Assembly: GCA_016906335.1 (NCBI GenBank)
Contig: JADEYG010000001.1
Coordinates: forward strand, 806,001 to 870,000
DNA length: 64,000 nucleotides
Direction: 5' to 3'
Origin: Novakomyces olei
Taxonomy: Eukaryota
The position numbers and the translations under genes were made by a program. Below are positions 20,252 to 26,488 of the stretch, in pieces (position 1 is the first letter of the stretch; each line of letters opens with the position of its first letter). Under the pieces are notes generated by a model that had not been told where the DNA came from, searched no databases, and saw nothing but the letters and a program-made list of their open reading frames with translations.

Positions 20252-21176
20252 TGATGACTTTGTGATGACTTTTGCTGCTGTGCAGGAAAAAGGTAGCGGC
20301 TTAGTAGATCGAATTGGCCGTCGGTTTGTGCTTTTCATGTCAATTATTATCATCATCTTTTCTTCTTTCAATACACGCTTTTATTAATTTTCCGATACAC
20401 CTATTTCCAGGAGTCAGGCTCACTGATACGTGTTTGGGAATATGGGATTGTACATGTCAAAGGGATGTCACCTTGTCGATCTGTTTTCCCTAAATAGCAC
20501 TCGTCAGGTATCTTTGTTCCTACACAATTTTCACATTTGTTTTTTTTAATTTTTAATTTTTTTTTTTTCATGACCTATCCGTTTATCCATTTCCTCGTTT
20601 CCCTGCGTTATCGTAGCAATATTTCCCACGAGATTAAATAGGTTGTCCAGAGTATCTCAAAATTGGAGTTCAAGGAGATCAGCAAGTTACGCGTTGGAGC
20701 GTTGCCTGTATTTCCAGACAGCAGTACTATCGCGTCGTATTGTGCAGTTGGCTGCGAGAAATTGTGTGGTACTTCGAGGCAACGTGCACGAGCAATCAAT
20801 GGCCGCAAATGCAAATTAACCGCCCATCGGTGGCTCTTGCAAGGCTTTACTTGTTTTGATCATGGTTCCATAGTTAAAATCCAATATTCTTCTTTATCAG
20901 TAAGTTTTATGTTTTAATTTTAAACCGCCCTTGTGCTTTTCGTTTACATTTTGCCATTGACTCACGAATTTGTCGGCATCTGTTATACATCGTCCGATAA
21001 TTGGCAAATAAATTGATAAAAATCCATTGTAACTATATCTCGTCCCCATACTAAATCAATTTTCCGGTTACTTGGTTAACATTCGAATGAAAGTGTGTAA
21101 TGATGTCATTGAAAAGCTTATGTCTATTGTGGCGTTGGACGCTTGGCAACCAAACACAAAACAAAACGAGTCGGCA

Positions 21177-21506
21177 ATGGATATTCCCTTTCTTTTTTGC
21201 GTGCAATGCGGTAAGTTTACAAAAGATTTAAACGACTCTTGATATCGTGATTTGCTACTGACGATTGCCAGGCCCTGGAGTCAACAACCCGTGCAAATGT
21301 AAAATTGTAGGGCCAACAGTGGGATTTATCGTTATGATTGGCACTGCAGTCATTGCATGGCCCGCCGCTATTCTCACTGGCGGATGCACAAAGCCTGCGA
21401 AAAAGTGCTGGGCGTTTCCGGGTAAGTGCTGCGTAAGTGGTGGTTACGACTAATGCATATTGCAGCCGAATCTAATTGGTCTGTGTCGAATGCAATACCC
21501 ATATGA
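21177..21506 (+). CDS. 74-aa Cys-rich hydrophobic miniprotein, 3 exons (21177-21210, 21272-21421, 21466-21506)
   Basis: Two GTAAGT donors, TACTGAC and GACTAAT branch points and CAG acceptors give MDIPFLFCVQCGPGVNNPCKCKIVGPTVGFIVMIGTAVIAWPAAILTGGCTKPAKKCWAFPAESNWSVSNAIPI* with no frameshift. Confidence 0.85.
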
Positions 21507-22559
21507 ATTTGTCACAGAGGGCAATTGATGTTTAACTTGTGGCTTTTGTGATGATACTGATGGTTTGAATATACATGTTTTTGATAATGCGTCAATTGTG
21601 TTGAGTGGTTTATTGTCTCGAGGAAGGGTAAGTCGAGCAAACGTATTTGCATCCAATATACATTGCAAATTGATCCAAATTGTCGGCGAAATATATTTCC
21701 GGCGTTGACTGGCTGTAATCTATGGGTGTCAAATTACTGGCCAGTCTACAAACATAATCAGCTGCCTTCTCCTGTAGTGTAATTCACATTGGCCCGTGTA
21801 TGTTTTTGTATTAAATACGGTGTGAATGTAACCCGTAAGTTTCATCAGTAGACTGACAGCATATGACTGCGCAGGGGTCTTTTCGTTACTTGTGTATACT
21901 GTCTTTCACAGTTTGCTTTGTACTAACGACGTGAGCGTTTGCCACGAGATTGGAATCATGATCACATAAAACACTTTACCCGGTTGTATAGAGGGCAGCA
22001 TAGGTAAACATAGCAATATTGTCCTTTATGCATTCTTCAGGCGTTCTTAGATTGATCAACTTGATCCTTTGTAGCTACCAACCAATCTGTCTCTGTCTGC
22101 TCTATATGCGACGGCAGTGCTCGTTGTGCTGGAGGCGAGTATTCGCGCAAATGTGGCTGCGTGCGAATACTATATGCAGGTACGTTTGCAGTGAACGGGT
22201 AATGCAACGGCCCATGAGGCAGCAATGACAAATATTCTCCGAACTAAACGGACTTACAACTAACTGACAATAATGATCTACGCCGCATGTTCCTTTGACA
22301 AATACAGTGTCATGTTTGACTACCATCGCACGCAGAATTGGGCAATGCCATATAAGATTTAGCAGAATTGCCGTTGCAATTGAGCCAAAAGTAGAAGATG
22401 GCTGGAATAAAGACGTGTATTTAAGAAACAGATTACTAGTGCAAGAGGCGGCGGCTGCGGGATCTAGGCATCCGTACTCTGTTCTAAAAATAATGCATCC
22501 CCACTCGTAGCGGCTATTTACTCTATCCATCCAGTAGTAATAAATAGACGAAATAGACT

Positions 22560-22673
22560 AAACAGAATAAGAGTATATAGAATGAGAGTAAATAGAATGA
22601 GAGTAAATAGAATGAGAGTAAATAGAATGAGAGTAAACTGCATAAATAGAATGAGAGTAAATTGCATAAATAG
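22560..22673 (+). repeat. 15-bp minisatellite AAATAGAATGAGAGT (~6 copies, the last ones interleaved with AAAYTGCAT)
   Basis: Read directly. Confidence 0.9.
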
Positions 22674-23776: not shown

Positions 23777-26488
23777 ATGTTCACTGGATGGCGACAATTA
23801 ACTTTGCTGCTAGTGCTTTTGTTCTCTGCTTCATTTCTAGTTGATGCCGCTGCTGTTACGAGCACACAATCCTCTGACAGCGAGAAGGACCAAACTCTAG
23901 GACTGTTCAAGATTCTCGGCAGCCTTAGTGGACGCGTATCCAGCGAAAGGCATACTTTGCATAAACGACAAAAGGCGGACACTGGGCAATTAAAGTTTCC
24001 ATCAGAAAAAGATACTGCAGCCAATGGATTGCCTTTGCCAGAGACTCCCGCAAAAAGGCGGCCCGGAGCCCCATCCGACTTGGAAGGCACAGAAATCACT
24101 GCGCCTGATTTGCTGTCTGATTCATTGCCTGGATCTAAAGAAAAAGGGACAGACAAGGATAATGGTCAAGCAAAAGTGCCAGAGGCAGTATCACCGGTGC
24201 CCTTTGTTTTACCGGCCATGCTGCCCACACTTTCAAAATCGGTTTTCACAGTGCAAGCAAAGTCCTTCCCTGAGGAATCAATAGCGGAAGCCGAGTTAAG
24301 GCAAAGTCGGCAGGATGAAATCGCAAGCACCTTCCTTAAAAGCTGGAAGGCTTACCACGACAATGCCTGGGGCGAAGATGTGCTCCTGCCCGACATGCGT
24401 AAGGGCATATCGACAATGTCAATGGCACAGACTGTATTTTCTGCTCTAGACACGGCGCTCATAATGGGGTTGGAAGAGCAGTACGCGACGTCCTGGCAAT
24501 ATATCAAGGCAATGGACCTGGACTTGCGGCCCCAAAACGTGGCCCTGGATGTGCCCGAGGTCTTTTCCCAGCTAGTGGCCTCCTTATTATCCTCCCGTGA
24601 TCTGGCATCCCTGTCTCCTCACCACAAAGTCGTAGCAGAACGTGTCCTTGATGCAGCCCTGATACTCTCTGAGCAAACAGAACAGGCTTTTGATCCAGTG
24701 ACTAAAATACCCAGCACTTTACTCGACTTGCGCCGTGCTCGCGGTGCAAGTGCAAGTGGAGTTAAATCTATTACCATTGGTAATGTCGGCCTGACCGCAT
24801 TGGAAATGTTGCAACTGGCTCGGGTTGCTAGTATCGACGCGTACACTGAAATCGCTAGTGGAATGCTTCAGAGTTTGCATGACCTCGGCGTCACTTCAAG
24901 CGAGCCCGGACTGCTACCAGCCGGAGCCTGGATTGGCTGTGCTCTGGCTGCCTCTCAGCAACAGCCAGAGGAGCAGTTACCGTCCCGCCCAAAAGCACCT
25001 ATCCAGCGTGAGTTTGAGTCGAGGCACTTGGTGCTTTCTACAGCGGATCGTATAAAATTGGCTTCACTTTATGACCAATTTGCTCCAAGATTTGAGGAGT
25101 CTCTGGTTCCGCCGCCTCGAAGACGACGACAGCGGCTTCGGTCTAAAGCTGTACGCGGAGAAGTCAAATCTGGCAGCAAAGGAGCAGCAAACAAGATGGC
25201 CCGCAAACAGGGAAGCCTGGCTGGGGACGAAAGATCAGGAGAAGCTGAGGAGGAAGAGGAGGAGGAAGTGCTTGAGGCTCAGCTGTACCGGGACCCAAAA
25301 ATAATAGAGGAAGACAGGCTGATTGATGATTTTGATCTGGGCTCAGTGAATGGCGAGAGCTTACTACTGGAAATGCAGCTGGCCAAACGGAAACAGGAGG
25401 CAGAAGGGCTGCCTGCCTTTGAGCGCGAGTCTATGGAAAAATCAGGTGTTCCTTCGTCCGTGGTGGACAGTATCGATAGGATGTTCACTTACATTCAGTC
25501 GGGAGAAAGACCAAGGCCACGAGTCCCCGAGGGAGCAATGCCAGATATCATTGCGCCGTCAGTTAAACAGGAGGAAGGAGAAGGAGACCAAAAACGTGAC
25601 GGGGAAGGAGATCAGGAGCCAGAGATGCATGAGCGTAGGAAAAGGTCTCAGGCTGATATTGAAGAGGCCCGCCAAAGACAGGAGGACCCGTCGTGTGACC
25701 CTACAAGGCTACGTTCTACTGACGAACTCTTTACACTGGGCTCAAATCTTGCTCAGGTGTATGACACTCTTGTTCAGGCCTATATGCTCTCTGGGGGCGA
25801 GCTTGTACAGGCACGATTATTGTGGAACAAGGCTTCTACTGCCATTCGCGAAAAGCTCTTGTTTACGCCCGCTGTCAATGGGCTGGAGGACACATTACTC
25901 GCTGGCCAGCTACGTCATGATGCTGGTGGCCAGCAATTGGAAGGAGAAGTCTTACAGACTTCTTGTCAGTTGGGTGCATTGTATTCCCTGGCAGGCCGTG
26001 TCTTTAATCGCGAGGCGGATATAGGCACAGCCGAAAAGTTGACTCTGGGCTGTCTGCGTATGGCAGAAAGGTCGGCCACACATTTGCCAGCGGCAGCACA
26101 AAGAGTCGGAGTTTGCCAAAAAGGGCAGCATTGTGCAGAGGAGCCAGTAGTCATGGAGGATTCTTCTTATTTCCTACAGCCAGAGCTGATAAGAAGCGTT
26201 TTCTACCTTTGGAGAATAACCGGCAACCGAGAATGGCAGGCCCGTGGATGGGAGCTGTGGAAGGCGACAGAAAGAGCCTGCAAGGCTCGAAACAGTCCTG
26301 CGTTTGTAGGCATTAAAAATGTAGAAGATCCTGCTTCGGGAGCAAGTGGCGCCAATGCAATGAATCCGGCCTGGCTTTCCGCTACTCTGAAATATTTCTA
26401 CCTACTGTTTAGCGATCCTTCCCTCGTTTCACTCGATGAGTTTGTGTTCAATGCCAAGGGCCATCCTTTCCGTTACCGTGCAGCATGA
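23777..26488 (+). CDS. Secretory-pathway glycoside hydrolase family 47 (class I alpha-1,2-mannosidase) fold protein, probably inactive
   Basis: Signal peptide. SWKAYHDNAWGEDVLLP, ALDTALIMGL, YFLQPELIRSVFYLWRITGN, TLKYFYLLFSDPSLVSLDEFVFN..GHP match the GH47 scaffold, but key acidic residues are substituted. Confidence 0.88.
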   Translation: MFTGWRQLTLLLVLLFSASFLVDAAAVTSTQSSDSEKDQTLGLFKILGSLSGRVSSERHTLHKRQKADTGQLKFPSEKDTAANGLPLPETPAKRRPGAPSDLEGTEITAPDLLSDSLPGSKEKGTDKDNGQAKVPEAVSPVPFVLPAMLPTLSKSVFTVQAKSFPEESIAEAELRQSRQDEIASTFLKSWKAYHDNAWGEDVLLPDMRKGISTMSMAQTVFSALDTALIMGLEEQYATSWQYIKAMDLDLRPQNVALDVPEVFSQLVASLLSSRDLASLSPHHKVVAERVLDAALILSEQTEQAFDPVTKIPSTLLDLRRARGASASGVKSITIGNVGLTALEMLQLARVASIDAYTEIASGMLQSLHDLGVTSSEPGLLPAGAWIGCALAASQQQPEEQLPSRPKAPIQREFESRHLVLSTADRIKLASLYDQFAPRFEESLVPPPRRRRQRLRSKAVRGEVKSGSKGAANKMARKQGSLAGDERSGEAEEEEEEEVLEAQLYRDPKIIEEDRLIDDFDLGSVNGESLLLEMQLAKRKQEAEGLPAFERESMEKSGVPSSVVDSIDRMFTYIQSGERPRPRVPEGAMPDIIAPSVKQEEGEGDQKRDGEGDQEPEMHERRKRSQADIEEARQRQEDPSCDPTRLRSTDELFTLGSNLAQVYDTLVQAYMLSGGELVQARLLWNKASTAIREKLLFTPAVNGLEDTLLAGQLRHDAGGQQLEGEVLQTSCQLGALYSLAGRVFNREADIGTAEKLTLGCLRMAERSATHLPAAAQRVGVCQKGQHCAEEPVVMEDSSYFLQPELIRSVFYLWRITGNREWQARGWELWKATERACKARNSPAFVGIKNVEDPASGASGANAMNPAWLSATLKYFYLLFSDPSLVSLDEFVFNAKGHPFRYRAA

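What the first reader, a model, noticed from the sequence alone, without database searches (positions are those of the whole stretch)
21177..21506. Hidden 3-exon Cys-rich membrane miniprotein resembling an uncharacterised land-plant small-protein family
Seen: near-perfect splice signals give a 74-aa product with a CxxC-x7-CxC head (FCVQCGPGVNNPCKCKIVGPTVGF), a hydrophobic segment containing WP, a basic/Cys patch and a C-terminal VSNAIPI. The ORF track shows only exon 2, and the gene sits alone in a ~3.5-kb otherwise non-genic gap. Recalled, not searched: angiosperms encode ~70-aa unknown proteins of the form CVQC..xNPCRCKVVGPTLGF...EWP...P...V.NAIPI, with matching motif order and terminus. Inference: this is either an ancient, patchily retained micro-protein or a plant-fungus transfer/mimic, possibly a palmitoylated or metal-binding membrane peptide.
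Basis: partly seen in the sequence, partly recalled or inferred. Interest (0 to 1): 0.78.

Follow-up and report, generated by a model that had tools for sequence, protein, structure and literature searches.

The report
Small cysteine-rich membrane protein gene
This is a real three-exon fungal gene for a 74-residue cysteine-rich membrane protein; it belongs to a little-studied family shared by green plants, green algae and ascomycete fungi whose one studied member is reported to help rice tolerate salt.

Summary
Exons 21177-21210, 21272-21421 and 21466-21506 join through two GTAAGT...CAG introns into a 74-codon frame.

A search with exon 2 alone found 35 relatives. These carry the N-terminal and C-terminal motifs that the window encodes on exons 1 and 3. 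Against a profile of 149 full-length members, the spliced product aligns end to end at 78.6 bits.

The recalled plant family is real: sources name members "Little protein 1" or "Cold-regulated protein". It has no Pfam model. It also spans green algae, five classes of Pezizomycotina and Saitoella.

The window copy groups with fungi (support 99/96), scores 27 bits higher on a fungal than on a land-plant profile, and has fungal-type introns. A recent plant-to-fungus transfer is therefore not supported, although an AU test does not exclude a position on the green side (p 0.43).

Function is inferred only: a membrane-anchored stress protein, by analogy with rice OsSALP1. No RNA evidence could be obtained. 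This is a new, divergent member of a known kind.

The parts
21177..21210 (+). Exon 1: start codon, 11 codons and the first base of a split Gly codon. It encodes the short hydrophobic N-terminus and the C-x2-C motif.
   Evidence: Adding it raises the family-profile score from 54.0 to 62.3 bits. The conserved columns C8, C11 and G12 are kept.
21211..21271 (+). Intron 1: 61 nt, GTAAGT...CTGAC...CAG, phase 1 in the Gly codon of C-x-Q-C-G.
   Evidence: It is the best-scoring junction of the alternatives tried. Two fungal-type metagenome loci, L058 and L062, have an intron in the same codon and phase.
21272..21421 (+). Exon 2: the N-P-C-x-C-K motif, G-P-T-x-G-F, a hydrophobic helix with W-P, and a basic/Cys patch.
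   Evidence: protein P0001. It gave 35 relatives at E <= 1e-3, 52.7 bits in the six-frame scan, and the hydropathy profile.
21422..21465 (+). Intron 2: 44 nt, GTAAGT...CTAAT...CAG, phase 1 after the conserved Pro (P61).
   Evidence: It is the best-scoring junction. No intron was found at this position in any of the 26 cleanly modelled fungal-type loci.
21466..21506 (+). Exon 3: the last 13 codons, ending in the family's ...SNAIPI terminus, plus the TGA stop at 21504-21506.
   Evidence: Adding it raises the profile score from 62.3 to 78.6 bits. The conserved I72 and P73 are kept.
21087..21176 (+). Possible 5' extension. In-frame ATGs at 21087 and 21120 have no stop before 21177, so the true start is not settled.
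   Evidence: ORF 21033-21242. Full-length family members start 7-10 residues before the C-x2-C motif, which favours 21177.

Best explanation
A genuine three-exon gene of an ascomycete-like fungus encodes a 74-residue member of the 'Little protein 1 / SALP1-type' family of small cysteine-rich membrane proteins. It is a divergent copy on the fungal side of the family, not a recent import from plants.

Shown here:
- The exon structure fits the family.
- The product matches the family profile end to end.
- The conserved residues are retained.
- The family occurs in green plants, green algae and Ascomycota.

Inferred architecture:
- A short N-terminal Cys4 knuckle (C-x2-C ... C-x-C). A relative's AlphaFold model draws it as a small beta hairpin. 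It could bind a metal or be S-acylated.
- One 23-27 residue hydrophobic helix with a conserved W-P.
- A basic juxtamembrane patch.
- A C-terminal helix ending in the conserved ...AIP[I/F].
- Both flanks of the hydrophobic segment are positively charged and cysteine-bearing. A monotopic hairpin with both ends in the cytosol is therefore as plausible as a single span.

Inferred function (about 0.3 confidence): a membrane-resident modulator of osmotic, salt or cold stress responses. This is by analogy with rice OsSALP1, whose overexpression is reported to raise proline synthesis and salt tolerance.
For: Gene model:
- Splice signals and reading frame are as described.
- The product aligns to profile positions 3-75 of 75.
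- 19 of 20 columns conserved at >=90% are kept, including residues on exons 1 and 3 that were not part of the search query.
- G+C is 0.47 over the gene against 0.34-0.44 in the flanks.

Family:
- 35 hits with exon 2 alone.
- 427 and 343 proteins at E <= 1e-3 with two profiles, 120 listed from each.
- Source names are 'Little protein 1' and 'Cold-regulated protein'.
- No Pfam family fits: the most frequent match was 8 of 149 members, at E >= 0.11.

Fungal affinity:
- Tree of 101 rows: fungi+window against green rows 97/91; Pezizomycotina+window 99/96.
- Fungal profile 81.5 bits against streptophyte 54.4 bits; best identity 57% to an Aspergillus protein.
- Introns are short with fungal-type signals.
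- The neighbouring ORFs are ordinary fungal genes. The PAP2_3 neighbour's nearest Atlas clusters are mostly Ascomycota, scores 0.98 and 0.97.

Architecture:
- Hydropathy profile and charge positions.
- AlphaFold2 model of relative P0120: pLDDT 75.4, strands at 12-13 and 22-23, helices at 25-47 and 54-73.

Function by analogy, from passages in citing papers only:
- OsSALP1 raises OsP5CS expression and proline under salt stress (PMC12819948).
- SALP1 is Os01g0644200 (PMC12757826).
Against: - No transcript evidence exists for this locus, and the start codon is ambiguous.
- The AU test does not reject a tree with the window row on the green side of the central branch (lnL difference 5.1, p-AU 0.43). 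The window row sits on a long branch of 0.58.
- A profile of 10 chlorophyte-type sequences scores nearly as high as the fungal one, 77.4 against 81.5 bits.
- The window shares a one-residue-longer G-x-G-V-N-N-P-C-K-C-K stretch with Coccomyxa proteins.
- Its intron pattern is atypical. It lacks both introns found in 26 of 26 cleanly modelled fungal-type loci, and it has one intron seen in none of them.
- The window's two neighbouring genes are not found beside the gene in any of 80 related loci with +/-2 kb flanks.
- The conserved Gly before the basic patch is Ala here.
- The link from this family to OsSALP1 rests on database names and one review sentence. No rice sequence was aligned here, and the primary paper (Yuan et al. 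2016) was not held.
- The OsSALP1 phenotype is an overexpression result in a plant, and nothing is known for any fungal member.
- No solved structure or fold match exists.
Confidence: 0.85

Rival explanations
1. The family's split distribution (green lineage plus Ascomycota) comes from one ancient horizontal transfer between a green alga or early plant and an early ascomycete, before Taphrinomycotina and Pezizomycotina diverged. The window gene is a vertical descendant of that event.
For: - All named rows listed belong to Viridiplantae or Ascomycota. None of the named rows among the 120 listed or the 120 listed comes from animals, Basidiomycota, other fungi or other protists.
- The tree has two sides, each roughly following species relationships. 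Chlorophytes lie outside streptophyte algae, bryophytes and seed plants. Saitoella lies outside Pezizomycotina.
- No intron position is shared across the two sides. All 34 full-length green-type loci are a single exon, whereas fungal-type loci have 2-3 introns.
Against:
- 75-residue multi-exon genes are often missed or mis-spliced by gene callers; searches show several read-through models. Absence from protein databases is therefore weak evidence.
- No eukaryotic genomes could be searched at the DNA level here.
- The tree is unrooted and has 78 columns.
Confidence: 0.3
2. The family is an ancient eukaryotic micro-protein, inherited vertically in both plants and fungi. It has been lost, or simply not annotated, in most other lineages.
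For: - It is deeply conserved on both sides: 20 columns are at >=90% identity across 149 members.
- There is clear evidence of under-annotation. Exon 2 shares no three 5-residue words with any candidate in the 5.8-billion-cluster collection, so the window's own product is not in it. Several database models are read-through or truncated.
Against: It needs many independent losses, and no named member outside Viridiplantae and Ascomycota was listed.
Confidence: 0.3
3. The window gene itself is a recent acquisition from a plant or green alga, for example a host or symbiont mimic or effector.
For: - The AU test does not reject the window row on the green side (p 0.43).
- The chlorophyte-type profile scores 77.4 bits.
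- The G-x-G-V-N-N-P-C-K-C-K stretch is shared with Coccomyxa.
- In the Atlas feature search with exon 2, the top cluster was mostly Streptophyta (0.92) and the second mostly Ascomycota (0.89).
Against: - Bootstrap and SH-aLRT support of 99/96 for Pezizomycotina+window.
- The streptophyte profile scores 27 bits lower than the fungal one, and the highest identities are all to fungal proteins.
- The C-terminal third has the fungal length and pattern.
- The gene has two short fungal-type introns, whereas all 34 full-length green-type loci have none.
- The same longer stretch also occurs in Diaporthe.
- There is no signal peptide-like feature, the gene lies among housekeeping genes, and no composition break stands out.
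Confidence: 0.04
4. The three-exon reading is a chance arrangement around one conserved-looking open frame, or a decayed pseudogene.
For: - There is no expression evidence.
- The branch is long and the intron pattern atypical.
- One conserved Gly is replaced.
Against: - Exons 1 and 3 add 8 and 16 bits, and the exact junctions are the optimum of 134 alternatives.
- 19 of 20 conserved columns are intact and there are no frame disruptions.
- Both introns have consensus donor, branch and acceptor signals.
Confidence: 0.03

Closest known systems
Plant 'Little protein 1' / 'Cold-regulated protein' small proteins, to which rice OsSALP1 (Os01g0644200) is linked by name
   Same: - Length is about 73-78 aa.
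- The motif order is the same: C-x2-C, N-P-C-x-C-K, G-P-T-x-G-F, a hydrophobic helix with W-P, a basic patch, and a ...AIP[I/F] end.
- Homology is significant: the streptophyte profile scores 54.4 bits.
   Different: - Plants have E-W-P and an R/K-rich G-R-R-I-M-x-H-P patch. The window has A-W-P and a shorter K-rich patch.
- Mean identity to seed-plant rows is 43%.
- All 34 full-length green-type loci (plant- and algal-type together) are intronless in the coding region, whereas the window has two introns.
- The functional data (plasma membrane, salt tolerance, proline) are for rice and were seen only in citing passages. OsSALP1's sequence was not compared here.
Uncharacterised 75-80 aa 'hypothetical proteins' of Pezizomycotina (for example Aspergillus desertorum P0179 and Aplosporella prunicola P0120) and of Saitoella
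   Same: - These are the nearest relatives: 55-57% identity and 81.5 bits on the fungal profile.
- They fall on the same side of the tree.
- The C-terminal P-A-[D/E]-x...S-N-A-I-P-I region has the same length.
- Intron 1 is in the same codon and phase as in L058 and L062.
   Different: - Typical fungal members have C-W-P followed by a C-C-C-C or C-G-C-C cluster, plus two conserved introns (phase 0 before x-x-C-W-P; phase 2 after G-K) in 26 of 26 modelled loci. The window has neither intron, has A-W-P, and has only two Cys after the helix.
- It has one extra residue before N-P-C, shared with Diaporthe and Coccomyxa.
CYSTM (cysteine-rich transmembrane module) stress-tolerance proteins, PF12734. 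The description of the family is recalled, not read here.
   Same: Both are small, cysteine-rich, membrane-anchored proteins found in plants and fungi and associated with stress tolerance.
   Different: - No sequence relationship was detected: PF12734 matched 0 of 149 members at E <= 1.
- CYSTM carries its Cys cluster inside a C-terminal tail anchor. Here the conserved Cys lie in front of the hydrophobic helix, and a conserved C-terminal tail follows it.
RCI2/PMP3 low-temperature- and salt-responsive small membrane proteins, PF01679 (recalled)
   Same: They are tiny hydrophobic proteins shared by plants and fungi, regulated by cold and salt, and located at the plasma membrane.
   Different: - No match in 149 members.
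- RCI2 has two transmembrane helices and no Cys-rich head.
LITAF/SIMPLE-like zinc-knuckle membrane-hairpin domain, PF10601 (recalled). One fungal member, P0009, is named 'LITAF domain-containing' by UniRef.
   Same: The concept is similar: Cys knuckles next to a hydrophobic segment that may dip into the membrane without crossing it, with cytosolic flanks.
   Different: - PF10601 matched neither P0009 at E <= 10 nor any of 149 members at E <= 1.
- In LITAF the two knuckles flank the hydrophobic stretch. Here both Cys pairs precede it.

Membership tests
Little protein 1 / SALP1-type small Cys-rich membrane proteins (no Pfam model; defined here from alignment A4 of 149 members) | End-to-end significant match to the family profile | tested here: met
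   78.6 bits, profile positions 3-75 of 75, window residues 3-74 of 74. The profile was built without the window sequence.
Little protein 1 / SALP1-type small Cys-rich membrane proteins | Length about 70-80 aa with the N-terminal C-x2-C-G and N-P-C-x-C-K motifs | tested here: met
   74 aa; C8, C11, G12, N17, P18, C19, C21 and K22 all kept.
Little protein 1 / SALP1-type small Cys-rich membrane proteins | G-P-T-x-G-F leading into one hydrophobic segment that holds a conserved W-P | tested here: met
   G25, P26, T27, G29, F30, A37, W41 and P42 kept. Hydropathy is high over residues 23-49.
Little protein 1 / SALP1-type small Cys-rich membrane proteins | Basic patch after the hydrophobic segment, with a conserved Gly | tested here: inconclusive
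   K52, K55 and K56 are present, but the Gly conserved in 142 of 149 members is Ala here.
Little protein 1 / SALP1-type small Cys-rich membrane proteins | Conserved Pro about 12 residues from the end, and a C-terminal ...I-P-[I/F] | tested here: met
   P61, I72 and P73 kept; the protein ends in Ile.
Little protein 1 / SALP1-type small Cys-rich membrane proteins | Rice OsSALP1 (Os01g0644200) itself belongs to this sequence family | not tested
   No rice sequence was in hand. The link rests on UniRef names ('Little protein 1') and on a review sentence equating little protein 1 with SALP1.
Little protein 1 / SALP1-type small Cys-rich membrane proteins | Plasma-membrane location and stress-regulated expression or a stress-tolerance phenotype | not testable with these tools
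CYSTM, PF12734 | Match to the Pfam model | tested here: not met
   0 of 149 members at E <= 1. Exon 2 gave 0 families at E <= 10.
LITAF-like zinc ribbon, PF10601 | Match to the Pfam model | tested here: not met
   0 of 149 members at E <= 1. P0009, which UniRef names as LITAF, gave no such hit at E <= 10.
BRI3, PF10164 | Match above the gathering score | tested here: not met
   1 of 149 members (Saitoella P0226) scored 16.7 bits against a cut-off of 25.9, E 0.011.
RCI2/PMP3, PF01679 | Match to the Pfam model | tested here: not met
   0 of 149 members at E <= 1.

The most novel reading that the evidence does not exclude
This roughly 75-residue family may be a cross-kingdom micro-protein whose presence in both the green lineage and Ascomycota stems from a single ancient alga/plant-fungus gene transfer. 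If so, its fungal members, including this structurally atypical and unannotated copy, would be an unrecognised component of fungal membrane stress tolerance working like rice SALP1.
Probability: 0.25. Interest if true: 0.6.

Novelty: new member of a known kind. Interest (0 to 1): 0.4.

Why it matters
The finding shows that a careful reading of splice signals can recover a real micro-protein gene that ordinary ORF lists miss. The gene's product is also absent from a 5.8-billion-cluster protein collection.

The family is strongly conserved: 20 columns are at >=90% identity across plants, algae and fungi. Yet it has no Pfam model and no structure, and only one studied member was found in the papers searched, in rice. 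Every fungal member listed is a 'hypothetical protein' or carries a plainly wrong name.

If the stress-tolerance role carries over, fungi would offer a simple genetic system for working out what this membrane protein does. That is harder to do in crops.

The restricted green-plus-ascomycete distribution is a testable case for either ancient gene transfer or systematic under-annotation of small spliced genes.

Tried and rejected
- Word-indexed protein search with exon 2: no candidate. The exhaustive search was needed instead.
- Own genome: none is held for this window.
- RNA evidence: no RNA holder was listed for window 20700-22000.
- Organism identification by exact look-up of 10 long window ORFs: none is in the collection. 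Only a phylum-level lead (Ascomycota) came from the Atlas.
- Synteny: tblastn of the C2H2 and GH47 neighbours against the 80 related loci gave no hits.
- Fold and structure: Foldseek against PDB gave no match at E <= 0.001 (best E 5.8). A profile search of PDB sequences gave 0 hits at E <= 10.
- Pfam: nothing for exon 2, for 16 single members, or for 149 members.
- Literature dead ends:
  - 'SALP1' by word start returned tick Salp15 papers.
  - A five-term cold-regulated query returned unrelated COR413 and LEA papers.
  - PMC9904508 uses SalP1 as a sample label.
  - The primary OsSALP1 paper (doi 10.1007/s11105-015-0944-0) is not held.
  - 'stress associated little protein' found 1 paper and 'LTCOR12' found 6. 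Only the listings were seen, and no link to this family could be tested.
- Type-C fungal loci (L017-19, L063, L068, L075-77, L079-80): my anchor-based models missed what looks like a micro-exon. They were left out of the intron count, which used the 26 of 45 multi-exon loci that scored >=105 bits.
- A homo-oligomer prediction was considered and not run, because the report makes no binding claim.

Full report
**Observation.**
- The ATG is at 21177.
- Exon 1 runs to 21210 and ends with one base of a Gly codon.
- Intron 1 is 21211-21271, 61 nt, GTAAGT...CTGAC...CAG.
- Exon 2 is 21272-21421.
- Intron 2 is 21422-21465, 44 nt, GTAAGT...CTAAT...CAG.
- Exon 3 is 21466-21506 and ends in TGA.

The three pieces translate as described. 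Joined by coordinates they give 225 nt, or 74 codons. A stop-to-stop ORF list shows only exon 2 as an open frame: 21262-21453, 63 aa. G+C is 0.47 over the gene and 0.34-0.44 around it.

The protein has Cys at positions 8, 11, 19, 21, 50 and 57. Its hydrophobic stretch covers about residues 23-49 and contains W41-P42. Lys residues at 20 and 22 lie before the stretch and at 52, 55 and 56 after it.

One caveat on the start: in-frame ATGs at 21087 and 21120 lie upstream with no stop between. The start at 21177 is chosen because family members begin 7-10 residues before the C-x2-C motif.

**Is it more than chance?** Exon 2 alone (P0001, 49 aa) has no Pfam match and no word-sharing candidate in the indexed collection. 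An exhaustive phmmer scan of 1.84 billion representatives found 35 proteins at E <= 1e-3, the best at 3.1e-7.

Those proteins carry a C-x-Q-C-G motif before the matched stretch, and many end in ...NAIP[I/F]. These are the features that the window encodes on exons 1 and 3, which were not in the query.

I built a profile from 149 full-length members, without the window sequence. The spliced product scores 78.6 bits and aligns to profile positions 3-75 of 75. Exon 2 alone gives 54.0 bits, intron 1 only gives 62.3, and the unspliced frame gives 9.2.

Of 20 alignment columns conserved in at least 90% of 149 members, the window keeps 19. The exception is Gly to Ala before the basic patch. A six-frame profile scan finds only this one copy in the 64-kb window.

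**What family is it?** The recalled plant family exists. Profile searches returned 427 proteins (mixed plant/fungal profile) and 343 proteins (fungal-weighted profile) at E <= 1e-3. Each call listed 120.

Named rows include:
- seed plants, a fern, a lycophyte, liverworts and mosses;
- the streptophyte algae Spirogloea and Mesotaenium (identified from the eukprot tag);
- the chlorophytes Coccomyxa (two species), Botryococcus and Raphidocelis;
- among fungi, many Dothideomycetes, Eurotiomycetes, Leotiomycetes and Sordariomycetes, one Lecanoromycete, and Saitoella of Taphrinomycotina.

Assigning genera to classes is from my own knowledge. No named row came from any other eukaryotic group. However, the lists were truncated and many rows are unnamed.

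Sources call plant members 'Little protein 1' or 'Cold-regulated protein'. Fungal members are 'hypothetical' or carry evidently misplaced names such as 'polyol transporter 2' and 'COP9 signalosome complex subunit 1'.

No Pfam family covers the family. Scanning all 149 members, the most frequent hit was 8 members at E >= 0.11. CYSTM, LITAF, RCI2 and BRI3 were absent or below threshold. No solved structure is related by sequence.

**Where does the window copy belong?** A careful maximum-likelihood tree of 101 rows and 78 columns splits into a green side and a fungal side. The window row falls with Pezizomycotina (ultrafast bootstrap/SH-aLRT 99/96). Fungi plus window against the rest has support 97/91.

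The window row has a long end branch of 0.58. An AU test does not reject a tree in which it sits on the green side of the central branch (lnL difference 5.1, p 0.43). The tree alone is therefore not decisive.

Independent indications are fungal:
- The fungal profile gives 81.5 bits and the streptophyte profile 54.4. A broad 10-sequence chlorophyte-type profile gives 77.4, nearly as high as the fungal one.
- The top identities (57-51%) are all to Eurotiomycete and Dothideomycete proteins.
- The gene has two short introns with fungal-type signals.
- The surrounding ORFs are ordinary fungal genes: RasGAP, PAP2_3, DUF2457, C2H2, GH47, CCT, ARID, OSBP, ECM29 and SNF2/RING. The PAP2_3 protein's nearest Atlas clusters are mostly Ascomycota.

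**Intron comparison.** The metagenome scan gave 80 related loci.
- 34 encode a full-length green-type protein (E-W-P or algal-type) in a single exon.
- 45 are multi-exon.
- 1 is cut by the contig end.

I could model 26 of the 45 multi-exon loci cleanly (>=105 bits). All 26 share a phase-0 intron two codons before C-W-P and a phase-2 intron in the codon after G-K.

13 of the 26 also have an intron next to C-x-Q-C-G:
- 7 in the Thr codon (phase 2);
- 4 in the Asp codon (phase 1);
- 2, L058 and L062, in the Gly codon (phase 1). This is the same codon and phase as window intron 1.

The window lacks the two universal fungal introns. Its second intron, phase 1 after the conserved Pro, was seen in none of the 26. 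No intron position is shared between green and fungal loci. The window copy is therefore a structurally atypical, divergent fungal member. The two neighbouring window genes are not next to the gene in any of the 80 loci.

**How it probably works.**

Shown:
- A conserved Cys head.
- A strongly conserved N-P-C-x-C-K-x-x-G-P-T-x-G-F entry into one hydrophobic helix with W-P.
- A basic patch.
- A conserved Pro and a C-terminal I-P-[I/F].

An AlphaFold2 model of the fungal relative P0120, made with the 149-row alignment, has moderate confidence (pLDDT 75.4, pTM 0.57). It draws a small beta hairpin over the Cys head, a helix at 25-47 and a helix at 54-73. It resembles no solved fold.

Inferred:
- The head could chelate a metal or be S-acylated.
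- Both flanks of the hydrophobic segment are basic and bear Cys, so a monotopic hairpin with both ends cytosolic is as plausible as a single span.

Function is by analogy only:
- A review states that 'little protein 1 (SALP1)' is plasma-membrane located and possibly osmoregulatory (PMC8558194, passage).
- Citing papers state that OsSALP1 improves salt tolerance by raising OsP5CS expression and proline (PMC12819948 and PMC11122936, passages).
- SALP1 is Os01g0644200 (PMC12757826, table passage).
- In a wheat salinity array table, a probe whose rice match is Os01g0644200 is listed at 2.41 (PMC4526543, passage).
- A moss 'Little protein 1' is listed among up-regulated miRNA targets under drought (PMC5054160, table passage).

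The primary paper (Yuan et al. 2016) was seen only in reference lists and is not held. I did not align a rice sequence, so the link between the family and OsSALP1 rests on names.

**Novelty and verdict.** The gene is real, and it is a new, divergent and probably unannotated member of a known but barely studied family.
- A recent plant-to-fungus transfer or mimicry is not supported.
- The origin of the family's green-plus-ascomycete distribution stays open. It could be ancient transfer, or ancient descent with loss and under-annotation. This needs genome-level searches that these tools do not offer.
- Interest is moderate. It is a tidy recovery of a hidden micro-gene and a pointer to an uncharacterised, deeply conserved membrane protein in fungi, but not a new kind of system.

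Noticed in passing
window 22555-22673: A tandem repeat lies in the intergenic gap downstream of the gene: a 15-nt unit x5.5 overlapping a 24-nt unit x2.3, at 92-96% matches. In one frame it reads as a repeated short peptide inside a 105-aa ORF. No function is suggested.
   Followed up: no
window 21087 and 21120: Two in-frame ATGs lie upstream of the proposed start with no intervening stop. They could be upstream starts or part of the 5' UTR.
   Followed up: partly
database proteins P0003, P0004, P0007, P0010, P0015, P0215, P0227: Many public gene models of this family look mis-spliced, with intron read-through inserts or wrong C-termini. Several carry names that cannot fit a 76-aa protein ('polyol transporter 2', 'COP9 signalosome complex subunit 1', 'CWF19-like protein mug161', 'LITAF domain-containing'). 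The family is systematically badly annotated.
   Followed up: partly
L017-L019, L063, L068, L075-L077, L079-L080: A third fungal gene structure has an extra intron right after G-P-T-x-G, and probably a micro-exon of about 8 codons before the x-x-C-W-P exon. My anchor-based models could not resolve it.
   Followed up: partly
L021-L034, L031-L033, L039, L041, L043, L054: Intronless copies in which the second Cys of the C-x2-C motif is replaced (C-I-E-V-G or C-V-Q-V-G). They resemble unnamed proteins that sit on the green side of the tree. The four-Cys head is therefore not universal in the family.
   Followed up: no
window 23777-26488: The GH47 (alpha-mannosidase-like) ORF downstream is 903 aa. 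Its best-scoring Pfam stretch covers residues 640-899 of two matched stretches, with long acidic/basic low-complexity sequence before it. This is an unusually extended form, or a gene model that needs introns.
   Followed up: no
window, 10 longest ORFs: None of the 10 long ATG-to-stop ORFs of the window is present as an exact sequence in the 15-billion-protein collection. Either this genome's proteome is not in it, or all of these genes are spliced differently.
   Followed up: no
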